Assembly (NCBI RefSeq): GCF_056746865.1
Contig: NZ_CM163382.1
DNA length: 64,000 nt
Direction: 5' to 3' (one strand)
The position numbers were made by a program. Shown one piece after another: positions 53,501 to 56,287 of the stretch (within the stretch, counting starts at the first letter, position 1; each line of letters starts with the position of its first letter).

Positions 53501-56287
53501 GTGTCATGGCTGACGCCCTGCGCCTGGCAATCTGCGATGCGGGAAGTGGGTGAACTACAGCCAGCCAGTAATATAACCGCCAGCAGGGAAAACGATTTAA
53601 TGGAGCTATTCATCATTGTTAACCTTAAATAATGTACGGAAAATTGCGAATAAGAAATTGCTGTTAAAATTAGAACGAATATCCCACGCCGACACCCGCA
53701 CCGAAATCAGATTGTGTATCCGCAGAAATACCTGCTTTAAGTACCGTATGCGTTCCGGCATTAAAAGATGTTCCTACAGACACCGCAGATTCACCGTTGT
53801 ACGTTCCCGCTCCCGCTGACACCATCATCAAGTCACCGGTTTTCACCTGTGGTTGTGAGGCGATAGCGATGGCAGATGCAGTTCCCGCATTGGCTTCTTT
53901 ACGATTGTCCTCAACTTCGTTTTTCAGAGAATCGAAATGGTTATTGAGCGTAGTAATCTGCTGGCTATTATCCGCTACTCGTTTTTGCGTGTTGCTTAAC
54001 TGCTGATGCGTTTGGGTTACGTCTTGTGTCAGGCTGTCAATTTGTTCATGCGTTTGTGTTGAGTCTTGCGCCAGACGCTGAATTTGTTCCCCGTACTGCA
54101 CACTATCGATATGCTGTTGCGTTGCCTGGTTAGTCGCCAGAGTATCTATTTTTTGTTTTTGTTCTGCTGCAGTACGCGCATTCGCATCATTTTGTGCTCT
54201 CAGTCCGGCGTTAACCATCTCTTGATAATGTGCGTTGGTCTGGGCATCGCCAAGTGCGGAAACCGTTTTTTGCGTCGCGTCGATTTGTTTCTGCTGATCG
54301 TCCATTTGTTGCTGCTGGGTGTCAGCTTGTGCCTGTTGCGCATTGGCAGCGGCTGTCTGTCTGGCGTCAATCATGCTCTGATATCGGGCGGCAGTCTGCA
54401 CATCCCCGGTGGCGGCAACGGTTTTCCGGGTTTCGTCGAGTTGTTGCTGCTGGTCAGCAATATCGCTGCGGTTCTGTTCGATATTATTTTTGTTTTCTGT
54501 CACAGCACCGGAAAGTTTGACGCCGTTCATCAGAGCGGTGTTGGCGTTAGCGTTGGCATGGTCAGCCGTTGACTGGGCATGTGCGACATCGCCTTTTATG
54601 TTGGTGACGTCTGACTGCACTGCGGAGACATCATTACGGGTGTCGGCGATGGCGGCTTTATTGGCATCAATATCCGTCTGCGCCACCATAATGGCGTGCT
54701 GCGCGTCATCAGCTTTCATTGAAGCCCAGTTGGCGACATGTTGTGCGTCCTGAATGGCGGTATCCTGCCCGTTGTCGCGGACGATCTGTTTTTGCTCGTT
54801 TGATGCCAACAGTTTCTGCTGGTCGGCAATATCGCTGCGGTTCTGTTCGATGTTGTTTTTGTTTTCTGTCACAGCACCGGAAAGTTTGACGCCGTTCATC
54901 AGAGCGGTGTTGGCGTTAGCGTTGGCATGGTCAGCCGTTGACTGGGCATGTGCGACATCGCCTTTTATGTTGGTGACGTCTGACTGCACTGCGGAGACAT
55001 CATTACGGGTGTCGGTGATGGCGGCTTTGTTGGCATCAATATCCGTCTGCGCCACCGTGATGGCGTGCTGCGCGTCATCAGCTTTCAGTGAAGCCCAGTT
55101 GGCGGCATGTTGTGCGTCCTGAATGGCGGTATCCTGCCCGTTGTCGCGGTCGGTCTGCGCTTGATTGGTTATCGGGTTCAGCGTATTGGCGGGCTGTACG
55201 GGAGAGGCAGCTGTATTTTCCTGAGGTGTCGTTGTCCGGTAATCATGCGCAATCAGATAATTTTGTGCGGCTGCACTATTCCCTGTCCTTTCTAAAAATC
55301 GACCAATTTTCTGATCAATTTCCGATTGCGACATTCCTGGCTGGATTGCCGTTAATTCTGTCGTTGCCGCCTCAACAGTATCACCCGCAAACGCAGATGG
55401 ACTTACCGCGGTAGCAACAACGACAGCCAGTAAAGACAGCTTTACAGTTTTCATGCATTTTTTCTCTTTCAAAGTAAGTCACATATTTGTTTCTATAAGC
55501 AACGTAAAACGTTGTTATAAGAATTAATCTGCGTTGCAATTTGATCGAAATCTACGCCGCCATTTGTGTGATGTAAAGCGCATTTTTGTCTGGTGTAAGC
55601 GTAAACATCACCAATAAGAAACAAAAAATGTTTCTTATATAAATAAAATCGAAAATCATTTTGTGCTCTTTCAATGTAAAAAAGAGTAAAGACTTGTTTT
55701 GATAAGCGAAATAAATTCTGTTTCTGGACTAAACGTGAAGCGGTTCCTGATGTGTGCTAAAATGCGTTTCTTTGATAAATCTCAATTTTTAAGAGGTTTA
55801 CGCCAGGCAGGAAAATTTAAATGAATGAATTTGAGAAGATTTTTAATGAAATGAATCTGGACCGGGCATTGCTACCGATCCTTTTTCGTTCGAACCGGTC
55901 AACAGTGTGGAAATATTTAAGTGGCGATAGTACGGCTCCTGCCTCAGCTATGTCACTGATTATGCTGTTGCAGTTAATCCAGAAACGAAACCCCGATCTG
56001 TTAGCCGAATGGTTAACGCTTTCTGATTTCACCATTCCGCCAGAAGTTTACCTGGACCAGCCTGATTACTGGAAAGGGTGGGTGTATACGCAACACAAGG
56101 TCAATAAAAACGTCCTGGAATATCTAAAAAAACATTATCCGGATGAAGACCAAAAAAACATGAATAAAGGTAGTGACGAGTAATTTGCCAATGCCAGTTA
56201 ATATAGCGGAGGCGGCCTACGATTCGGGCGCAGACTTCCAGGCATGATAAGACGCGCCCGCGCCGCATCAGGCATCAGCGCATAACC

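What the first reader, a model, noticed from the sequence alone, without database searches (positions are those of the whole stretch)
55473..56183. Divergent small HTH-like ORF across an AT-rich region from the autotransporter
A 120-aa ORF with good RBS and a helix-turn-helix-like segment (RSTVWKYLSG) is transcribed divergently from the autotransporter, separated by about 350 bp of AT-rich DNA. This arrangement is typical for a local transcriptional regulator.
Basis: inference. Interest (0 to 1): 0.4.

Follow-up and report, generated by a model that had tools for sequence, protein, structure and literature searches.

The report
Small HTH regulator beside adhesin gene

Summary
ORF 55821-56183 (+) is a genuine gene with an AGGA ribosome-binding site. 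It is under purifying selection (dN/dS 0.08-0.16). It lies 366 bp (32% GC) from a divergent YadA-type trimeric autotransporter gene.

An AlphaFold model built on 25 relatives (pLDDT 90.6) matches only XRE/lambda-repressor helix-turn-helix proteins.

The family is small and restricted to Enterobacterales. In every locus with enough flanking sequence, the gene sits about 230-400 bp from a divergent operon. That operon carries a conserved 140-aa lipoprotein in eight of the ten distinct contexts, usually behind one or two autotransporter genes.

The intergenic region holds clustered GTTTC-N5-GAAAC palindromes, 20-40 times the background rate. One overlaps the predicted start of the gene's own promoter. 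Distant subfamilies carry different repeated palindromes at the same place.

Best reading: a dimeric XRE-type autoregulator and local controller, probably a repressor, of the adhesin/lipoprotein operon. DNA binding and targets are inferred, not shown. It is a new member of a known kind.

The parts
55821..56183 (+). [not shown]
55863..55922 (+). Codons for the helix-turn-helix: helix 2 is residues 15-22 and recognition helix 3 is residues 26-34. N25, R26, S27, K31 and Y32 are invariant in the close family, and R26 is invariant in all 25 aligned relatives.
   Evidence: Secondary structure of the model; alignments A2 and A3.
55455..55820 (.). 366-bp AT-rich (32% GC) divergent control region. Its length (356-379 bp) is conserved across the close family.
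55755..55763 (+). Predicted promoter of the HTH gene: an extended -10 element, TGcTAAAAT. The predicted transcription start is near 55770.
   Evidence: Read from the sequence. The block TG-n-TAAAAT-gc-GTTTC is nearly invariant in seven loci from different genera, and in Lelliottia locus L014 TAAAAT is again followed by GTTTC. The consensus scan did not list it because the -35 is poor.
55549..55577 (-). Predicted sigma-70 promoter of the autotransporter operon: TTTACA-17-TAGATT. The predicted start is near 55542, giving a leader of about 88 nt.
   Evidence: Promoter scan. Both hexamers lie in the most conserved block of the multi-genus alignment; GTAAAGC is invariant and TA..TT of the -10 is kept.
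55766..55780 (.). Candidate operator O6, GTTTCTTTGATAAAT. It overlaps the predicted start (-4 to +11) of the HTH gene's own promoter.
   Evidence: conserved in position in 6 of 8 close loci.
55720..55734 (.). Candidate operator O5, GTTTCTGGACTAAAC (1 mismatch to the palindrome). It abuts the -35 position of the HTH gene's promoter.
55630..55644 (.). Candidate operator O3, GTTTCTTATATAAAT. Together with the inverted half-site GAAAC at 55618-55622 it lies about 75-100 bp upstream of the autotransporter promoter start. Other genera have a full GTTTC-N5-GAAAC palindrome here.
55489..55503 (.). Candidate operator O1, GTTTCTATAAGCAAC (1 mismatch), inside the autotransporter leader at about +39 to +53. 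It is the left arm of a larger palindrome, 55489-55525.
53670..55454 (-). [not shown]
   Evidence: primer mapping.
53194..53616 (-). [not shown]
   Evidence: 44-46% identity to the partners in Serratia and Hafnia; primer mapping.
52994..53197 (-). 67-aa small hydrophobic protein, the last gene of the leftward operon. Its start overlaps the lipoprotein stop by 4 nt.
   Evidence: A gene of 64-71 aa sits at this position in most related loci, but there is no detectable sequence similarity to the Serratia one.
52991..56367 (.). The whole 3.4-kb island (OI-29 type). It is inserted between the cueR and ybbJ stop codons, which abut each other in K-12.
   Evidence: The left and right halves co-occur in 1416 and 1415 of 5426 complete E. 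coli genomes.

Best explanation
The ORF encodes a small cytoplasmic DNA-binding protein of the XRE (Cro/CI, lambda-repressor-like) helix-turn-helix class. Residues 1-70 form a five-helix HTH domain, and residues 74-116 form a family-specific helical extension that may mediate dimerisation. I propose that it binds as a dimer to 15-bp palindromes of the type GTTTC-N5-GAAAC, whose half-site centres lie one helical turn apart. These palindromes are scattered over the 366-bp region it shares with the divergent operon (autotransporter, lipoprotein, 67-aa protein). One site covers the predicted start of its own promoter, so it should repress itself. Other sites abut its -35, lie upstream of the autotransporter promoter, and lie in the autotransporter leader, so it should also set the level of the adhesin operon, most likely as a repressor or modulator rather than an obligatory activator. 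SHOWN here: the gene is real and under constraint; the fold prediction; the conserved gene arrangement; the local clustering and positional conservation of the repeats; the conserved promoter-like elements. INFERRED: DNA binding, the operator identity, dimerisation, the target genes and the sign of regulation.
For: Fold:
- The AF2 model has pLDDT 90.6 and pTM 0.79.
- Family members hit Pfam MqsA_antitoxin (7 members, best E=2.4e-5), Xre-like-HTH (4), HTH_3 (3) and HTH_26 (2), and PHROG regulator/repressor families.

Constraint and expression:
- dN/dS is 0.078-0.16.
- z0640 has RPKM 43.5 in DMEM. z0638, z0639 and z0640 all fall to 0 on HeLa cells, confirmed by qRT-PCR at -5 to -10 fold.

Linkage:
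- The gene is divergent from a YadA_anchor gene, or a recognisable remnant, plus lipoprotein in Escherichia, Pseudocitrobacter, Symbiopectobacterium, Lelliottia, Hafnia and unnamed metagenomic Enterobacterales, down to 32% identity.
- This holds at different chromosomal sites.
- In E. coli the two halves of the island co-occur (1416 vs 1415 genomes).

Operators:
- GTTTC/GAAAC occurs 5 times in the 366 bp against 0.7 expected. It is enriched in 9 of 13 loci tested, p<=0.005.
- 4 of the 24 palindrome matches (<=2 mismatches) in the 64-kb window fall in these 366 bp.
- There are 1-5 sites per intergenic region against 0.05-0.34 background, at conserved distances from the ATG of about -332, -305/-313, -191 to -216, -101 and -55.
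- The -10 followed by GTTTC arrangement is kept in Lelliottia at 48% protein identity.
- Distant subfamilies with different recognition helices have their own repeated motifs, palindromic where they could be read, in the same place: GTCTC-N5-GAGAC (L019), TGTTCC/T (L017), ATGTCCCTGT (L020), TAGCTATTAGCTA (Serratia L029).

Sign of regulation:
- The published pACYC184-gmrA clone carries the autotransporter plus 319 bp of the intergenic region but no z0640. It complements the whole-island deletion.
- The z0640 deletion does not copy the z0639 phenotype.
Against: - No experiment shows that this protein binds DNA or affects z0639 or z0638.
- The window protein itself scores only 13.5 bits on any Pfam HTH model, below the cut-off of 30.
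- PDB sequence searches find nothing significant.
- The first AF2 run with 11 close sequences was poor (pLDDT 60.9), so the confident model depends on the deeper alignment.
- Only two of the four E. coli sites are within one mismatch of the palindrome. The right half-sites of O3 and O6 are weak (AT-rich).
- In AT-rich DNA some enrichment of T-rich pentamers may survive the shuffling controls used.
- The promoters are predictions; no transcription-start data were available.
- The sign argument rests on a multicopy plasmid and on a published phenotype whose interpretation I question.
Confidence: 0.6

Rival explanations
1. It is a leftover Cro/CI-like regulator of a decayed mobile element. It still represses its own promoter but does not control the adhesin operon; the adjacency is historical.
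For: The most distant relatives lie beside large serine recombinases, among genes with PHROG, HNH or homing-endonuclease hits. In Lelliottia the whole module lies next to such a recombinase. The best-placed operator in E. coli is the one over the gene's own promoter. A minority of E. coli alleles are frameshifted in the C-terminal part (P0016, P0018 with 14 members, P0005).
Against: Purifying selection and the divergent partnership are maintained in loci that have no recombinase or other mobile-element gene in the fetched flanks, in at least six named genera and at several chromosomal sites. Repeats also lie around and downstream of the autotransporter promoter. Both transcription units are shut off together on host cells.
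Confidence: 0.2
2. It is a trans-acting regulator whose main targets lie elsewhere in the chromosome, for example flagellar genes, and it is the real DNA-binding factor behind the motility effect reported for OI-29.
Against: The paper reports that the z0640 deletion has no effect on motility, fliC or motA, and that z0640 on a plasmid does not complement the island deletion. No GTTTC-N5-GAAAC site (<=2 mismatches) occurs in 2.7 kb around the K-12 fliA promoter.
Confidence: 0.07
3. It is the antitoxin of a toxin-antitoxin pair, or an Aca-like partner of a small neighbouring gene, because its closest fold and profile matches are MqsA, HigA2 and Aca1/Aca2.
For: The best Pfam hit is the MqsA_antitoxin HTH. 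HigA2 and Aca2 top the fold searches. A ParE_like gene lies in the divergent operon of three distant or intermediate loci.
Against: No gene is co-transcribed with it in E. coli: downstream come REP elements and the convergent ybbJ. The protein has no cysteines, so it lacks the MqsA zinc domain (sequence). The ParE_like genes, where present, are on the opposite strand, and they are absent from the close family. It is monocistronic in all close-family loci.
Confidence: 0.03
4. It has an HTH-like fold but does not bind DNA; it acts through protein or RNA contacts, for example as an anti-repressor or an RNA-binding HTH.
Against: The recognition-helix residues are the most conserved part of the family, with R26 invariant in 25 sequences. 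Repeated palindromes that differ between subfamilies are what a DNA-binding dimer predicts.
Confidence: 0.05

Closest known systems
XRE / Cro-CI (lambda-repressor-like) helix-turn-helix regulators (Pfam clan HTH, e.g. HTH_3 PF01381)
   Same: A predicted five-helix domain with the HTH at helices 2-3. It has the typical pattern L..L....RST...Y..G....P....L. It is small, and palindromic repeats lie in its own promoter region.
   Different: The window protein does not reach any Pfam or NCBIfam threshold. It has a family-specific helical extension of about 45 residues. The family is tiny: 24 representatives at 50% identity among 1.8 billion proteins.
Aca2 (anti-CRISPR-associated autorepressor, PDB 7VJO/7VJQ)
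   Different: Identity is 16-18%, and the full-length superposition is poor (rmsd 7.7-9 A), so only the HTH domain matches. There is no acr gene, no phage context and no phage homologue.
HTH domains of type II antitoxins MqsA (PF15731) and HigA2 (PDB 5J9I)
   Same: MqsA_antitoxin is the best sequence-profile match and HigA2 is the best Foldseek match. Both cover residues ~6-63.
   Different: There is no toxin gene, no zinc-binding domain and no cysteine, and the gene is monocistronic.
Controller (C) proteins of restriction-modification systems (C.AhdI, C.Esp1396I)
   Different: There are no R-M genes here. The operators are spread over about 330 bp and two divergent promoters rather than packed into one compact OL/OR pair.
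[not shown]
   Same: It lies on the same island. The paper covers the ORF studied here under the name z0640.
   Different: GmrA is not this ORF. The published deletion, cloning, FLAG-tag and pET primers for gmrA map to the YadA-family autotransporter (MKTVNVAL...GVGYSF), and the z0640 primers map to the HTH ORF. The paper calls z0640 a hypothetical protein with no motility phenotype.
Dedicated regulators of other trimeric autotransporters (e.g. NadR for NadA in Neisseria, VirF for YadA; from my own knowledge, not tested here)
   Same: A transcription factor sets the expression of a trimeric autotransporter adhesin.
   Different: Those regulators belong to the MarR and AraC families and are not encoded divergently next to the adhesin. 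I know of no described XRE regulator that travels with a TAA-lipoprotein operon.

Membership tests
XRE / lambda-repressor-like HTH superfamily | Compact five-helix domain with the helix-turn-helix formed by helices 2 and 3 | tested here: met
   [not shown]
XRE / lambda-repressor-like HTH superfamily | Significant sequence-profile match to a curated XRE-type HTH model | tested here: inconclusive
   For the window protein the best hit is MqsA_antitoxin at 13.5 bits (cut-off 30, E=0.081), and NCBIfam gives nothing. Relatives reach E=2.4e-5 (MqsA_antitoxin), 3.7e-5 (Xre-like-HTH) and 2.5e-4 (HTH_3).
XRE / lambda-repressor-like HTH superfamily | Sequence-specific binding to (pseudo)palindromic DNA as a dimer | not testable with these tools
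   The evidence is indirect only: clustered GTTTC-N5-GAAAC repeats, and subfamily-specific palindromes in the cognate intergenic regions.
Type II antitoxins with XRE HTH (MqsA, HigA) | Co-transcribed cognate toxin gene | tested here: not met
   There is no adjacent same-strand gene. Downstream are REP elements and the convergent ybbJ. The same holds in all close-family loci.
MqsA | N-terminal zinc-binding (Cys4) domain | tested here: not met
   The 120-aa sequence contains no cysteine. The Pfam match covers only profile positions 76-129, the HTH part.
Anti-CRISPR-associated (Aca) regulators | Encoded in an operon with an anti-CRISPR gene in a phage or mobile element | tested here: not met
   The gene is monocistronic. 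There is no phage homologue by tblastn, and the island has no phage genes.
Phage CI/Cro immunity regulators | Located in a prophage or integrative element at a divergent lysis-lysogeny switch | tested here: not met
   The 3.4-kb island holds only four genes and no integrase. Distant relatives (30% identity or less, plus the Lelliottia locus) do lie beside large serine recombinases and genes with PHROG hits. This fits descent from such an element, not membership.
R-M controller (C) proteins | Adjacent restriction endonuclease and methyltransferase genes | tested here: not met
   Neighbours are the autotransporter operon, REP elements and ybbJ.
[not shown]
   The gmrA primers flank or lie in the autotransporter CDS (L023 3539-4555). 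The z0640 primers flank the HTH ORF (L023 4922-5284), and the forward arm equals window 55783-55820.

The most novel reading that the evidence does not exclude
Probability: 0.2. Interest if true: 0.65.

Novelty: new member of a known kind. Interest (0 to 1): 0.45.

Why it matters
- The island is carried by about a quarter of complete E. coli genomes. According to the 2018 paper these include O157:H7, O55:H7, O145:H28, UTI89, RS218, S88, E2348/69 and 042.
- It encodes an uncharacterised surface adhesin module whose regulation is unknown.
- It also exposes a probable mis-assignment that has passed into at least two reviews. The published "transcriptional activator GmrA" has a signal peptide, a coiled-coil stalk and a YadA outer-membrane anchor, while the neighbouring gene with the real DNA-binding fold was set aside as having no phenotype.
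- In biological terms, though, a small HTH regulator next to its target operon is an ordinary arrangement.

Tried and rejected
- **PDB sequence searches.** Neither the single protein nor the profile gave a significant hit.
- **First AF2 run.** With 11 close sequences it gave pLDDT 60.9 and was not used.
- **Unavailable or failed searches.** The afdb50 fold library was not available. The search for related loci failed with the deep alignment. With the close alignment it returned only 4 species-representative loci, which shows a narrow distribution but adds no new contexts.
- **Mobile carriers.** There are no homologues in phage records, and none in true plasmids; the two "plasmid" hits are chromosome-sized records.
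- **Rfam.** There is no RNA family in the intergenic region; only REP/naRNA4 lies downstream of the ORF.
- **CRP site.** TGTGATGTAAAGCGCA at 55567-55582 resembles a CRP site. I rejected it because its centre lies about 32 bp from the predicted autotransporter start, not the canonical -41.5 or -61.5. Its conservation is explained by the -35 hexamer TTTACA on the other strand.
- **Dam/Lrp (Pap-like) phase variation.** There is a single GATC in the window's intergenic region and none in the O157 allele.
- **Conserved RNA structure of the autotransporter leader.** RNAalifold predicted no pairs across genera. A hairpin is seen only within Escherichia.
- **SadB-like helper.** No PDB sequence match for the lipoprotein and no Pfam or NCBIfam family above threshold. 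The idea was not supported and was not pursued further.

Full report
**Where we are.** The window is E. coli chromosome. Around the finding the order is siiEA giant adhesin, type I secretion genes, cueR, a 3.4-kb insert, then ybbJ-qmcA and fetAB. In K-12 the cueR and ybbJ stop codons abut. The insert is therefore 52991-56367. It holds four genes:
- a 67-aa hydrophobic protein, 52994-53197 (-);
- a 140-aa lipoprotein, 53194-53616 (-);
- a YadA-type trimeric autotransporter, 53670-55454 (-);
- the 120-aa ORF of the finding, 55821-56183 (+).

REP elements follow the ORF; Rfam calls them naRNA4 at 56241-56318.

**Checking the observation.**
- The ORF starts at an ATG, with AGGA 8 nt upstream.
- The divergent gene has a YadA_anchor domain (E=3.7e-12) and matches the Hia and AtaA anchors in the PDB.
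- The spacer is 366 bp from the conserved ATG of the autotransporter, or 348 bp from an upstream TTG. Its GC content is 32%.
- The ORF is not a chance ORF. It has homologues at 61-99% identity in other genera.
- dN/dS is 0.078 against the O157:H7 allele, although synonymous divergence is high (dS 0.18). It is at most 0.16 against other genera.
- The same gene is transcribed in O157:H7, at RPKM 43.5.

**What the protein is.** Direct profile searches are nearly blank. Pfam gives only a sub-threshold match to the HTH part of MqsA (13.5 bits), NCBIfam gives nothing, and the PDB gives nothing by sequence.

An exhaustive profile search of 1.8 billion representatives found only 24 relatives. With these I built a 25-sequence alignment. 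AlphaFold2 on the close alignment was poor (pLDDT 60.9). On the deeper alignment it reached pLDDT 90.6 and pTM 0.79.

Scanning every family member against Pfam gave repeated weak hits to MqsA_antitoxin (7 members), Xre-like-HTH (4), HTH_3 (3) and HTH_26 (2). PHROGs gave regulator and repressor families.

R26 is invariant in all 25 sequences. Residues 74-116 form extra helices with no counterpart in the matched structures.

**Gene neighbourhood.** The gene always sits about 230-400 bp from a divergent operon. The spacing is 356-379 bp in the close family.

| Organism or source | Position of the module | Divergent operon |
|---|---|---|
| Pseudocitrobacter | between qmcA and fetA | YadA_anchor gene, lipoprotein, small gene |
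| Two metagenomic Enterobacterales | between qmcA and cnoX | YadA_anchor gene or remnant, lipoprotein |
| A JGI contig | unrelated context | YadA_anchor gene, small gene |
| Symbiopectobacterium | beside decayed remnants | remnants of the operon |
| Lelliottia (48% identity) | next to a large serine recombinase | two YadA genes, a ParE-like gene, lipoprotein |
| Hafnia alvei, H. paralvei (44% and 32%) | another site | YadA gene, lipoprotein |
| Serratia fonticola | next to qmcA | no autotransporter; a 141-aa lipoprotein (44% identical to the E. coli one) and a small gene |

The two most distant relatives lie beside serine recombinases, among genes with PHROG and HNH hits. There the divergent operon starts with a ParE-like gene.

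Two conclusions follow. The constant partnership is HTH gene with lipoprotein operon, and the autotransporter is a usual but not universal passenger. The family probably descends from a mobile-element regulator.

In E. coli the two halves of the island occur in 1416 and 1415 of 5426 complete genomes.

**The control region: promoters.** A seven-locus alignment across genera shows two strongly conserved blocks.
- One block reads TTTACA-17-TAGATT on the minus strand (55577-55549). The consensus scan also picked it. It is a plausible promoter for the autotransporter operon with a leader of about 88 nt.
- The other block is TGcTAAAAT (55755-55763), an extended -10 for the HTH gene. It is followed directly by GTTTCTTTGAT.

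**The control region: repeats.** The pentamer GTTTC/GAAAC occurs 5 times in 366 bp against 0.7 expected. It is enriched in nine loci. Its context reveals a palindrome, GTTTC-N5-GAAAC.
- In the whole 64-kb window such palindromes (<=2 mismatches) are no more frequent than chance: 24 against 26.6.
- Four of the 24, however, lie in this 366-bp stretch.
- Related loci carry 1-5 sites per intergenic region against 0.05-0.34 expected, at conserved distances from the ATG.
- In E. coli the sites are 55489-55503 (autotransporter leader), 55630-55644 with a half-site at 55618-55622 (upstream of the autotransporter promoter), 55720-55734 (abutting the -35 of the HTH promoter) and 55766-55780 (over the predicted start of the HTH promoter).
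- The -10 followed by GTTTC arrangement recurs in Lelliottia.

Subfamilies with different recognition helices have different repeated motifs, palindromic where they could be read, at the same place:
- GTCTC-N5-GAGAC twice, plus one perfect GTTTC-N5-GAAAC, in L019, a locus without any autotransporter;
- TGTTCC/T in Hafnia paralvei;
- ATGTCCCTGT in Klebsiella aerogenes;
- TAGCTATTAGCTA in Serratia.

This is the pattern expected for operators that co-evolve with their dimeric HTH protein.

**Link to the literature.** The island is O-island 29 of EHEC O157:H7 (z0638, z0639, z0640), studied by Yang et al. 2018 (PMC5826968). I mapped their primers onto an O157:H7 genome.
- The z0640 deletion arms flank the HTH ORF. 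The forward arm is identical to window 55783-55820.
- The z0638 arms flank the lipoprotein.
- The gmrA (z0639) deletion arms flank the autotransporter.
- The gmrA cloning and pET-28a primers, and the FLAG primer sequences (ATGAAAACTGTAAACGTAGCTTTA ... CGGCGTGGGATATTCGTTC), also map to the autotransporter. These encode MKTVNVAL at one end and GVGYSF at the other.

So the published "transcriptional activator GmrA" is the YadA-family autotransporter. In my scans its only significant domain is YadA_anchor. The only DNA-related Pfam name is TMF_DNA_bd at E=1.1, which is coiled-coil noise. Two later reviews repeat the assignment.

For the ORF studied here the paper gives three useful facts:
- it is expressed;
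- all three island genes are switched off together on HeLa cells (Table S3);
- deleting z0640 changes neither motility nor fliC or motA.

**Best explanation and rivals.**
- Relic rival (0.2): a mobile-element repressor that now only regulates itself. The conserved partnership without mobile-element genes, the sites around the autotransporter promoter and the coordinated shut-off argue against it.
- Trans-acting regulator of motility genes (0.07): disfavoured by the z0640 deletion phenotype and by the absence of the motif at the fliA promoter.
- Antitoxin or Aca role (0.03): fails because there is no co-transcribed partner and the deletion mutant is viable.
- Non-DNA-binding role (0.05): cannot be excluded but fits the conserved recognition helix poorly.

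**Comparison with known families.** At fold level the protein belongs to the XRE/lambda-repressor HTH superfamily. It is not a member of the MqsA, HigA, Aca, phage CI/Cro or C-protein families, because each one's defining context feature was tested and not met. In working principle it most resembles C-proteins or Aca-type autorepressors that bind several palindromes around their own promoter. The family has no Pfam or NCBIfam model and is restricted to Enterobacterales.

**Verdict.** This is a new, uncharacterised member of a very common kind of regulator, so the intrinsic surprise is moderate. The added value lies in concrete, testable operators and promoters for a widespread adhesin island, and in showing that the island's published transcription factor is the adhesin while the gene with the DNA-binding fold was overlooked.

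Noticed in passing
[not shown]
   Followed up: yes
window 54443-55157: A 369-bp tandem duplication (1.9 copies, 96% identical) lies in the autotransporter stalk. 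It makes the protein about 600 aa here against 338 aa in O157:H7. Sizes of 346-615 aa are seen in other loci, so the stalk length is polymorphic.
   Followed up: partly
window 55489-55525 (autotransporter leader): This is a large palindrome made of two operator-like units. Its inner arms differ between Escherichia alleles yet stay complementary: GCAACGT/ACGTTGT here, AACAAT/ATTGTT in O157, and other versions in E. sp. E1V33 and E. whittamii. It folds as an RNA hairpin in all four (z -0.9 to -4.1), but RNAalifold finds no consensus across genera. It could be a leader hairpin or a double operator.
   Followed up: partly
window 55663-55900: A 238-bp block is 100% identical between the window and the O157 allele, while the flanks on both sides differ (46 differences in 729 bp, all outside this block). 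The block covers the HTH promoter, two candidate operators, the 5'UTR and the first 80 nt of the ORF. This reflects either constraint or a recombination patch.
   Followed up: no
L029-L031 (Serratia fonticola), L002-L005 (Pseudocitrobacter), L010, L012: In other genera the module sits directly upstream of qmcA-ybbJ, with the leftward operon on the same strand as qmcA-ybbJ. In E. coli it lies on the other side, between cueR and ybbJ. Serratia fonticola has the HTH gene with only the lipoprotein and a small gene, and no autotransporter. This raises a possible functional tie between the lipoprotein and the SPFH/NfeD pair.
   Followed up: partly
window 56241-56318 and 56341-56407: REP/BIME-type elements (Rfam naRNA4, 71.9 bits, plus a weak second copy) fill the gap between the HTH gene and ybbJ. 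They may serve as its terminator or stabiliser.
   Followed up: no
window 56368-56400 vs K-12 (L022 3402-3435): About the last ten codons of ybbJ differ completely between this strain and K-12. The island boundary therefore replaced the 3' end of ybbJ.
   Followed up: no
L014 (Lelliottia), L019, L020/L021 (Klebsiella aerogenes): Distant family members lie next to large serine recombinases. Their divergent operon contains a ParE_like gene, and genes with PHROG hits (HNH and homing endonucleases) lie on the other side. This suggests that the module originated in an integrative mobile element.
   Followed up: partly
L001 (strain 118UI) 7271-8320: RefSeq annotates the autotransporter of strain 118UI as only 349 aa, leaving 1.1 kb unannotated. 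Its island differs from the window at just 2 positions. Either one of them disrupts the frame or the start was mis-called.
   Followed up: no
window 49252-52586 and upstream: A type I secretion ABC/HlyD pair and the giant BapA-related adhesin siiEA lie immediately upstream of cueR. Two different adhesin systems therefore flank cueR in this strain.
   Followed up: no
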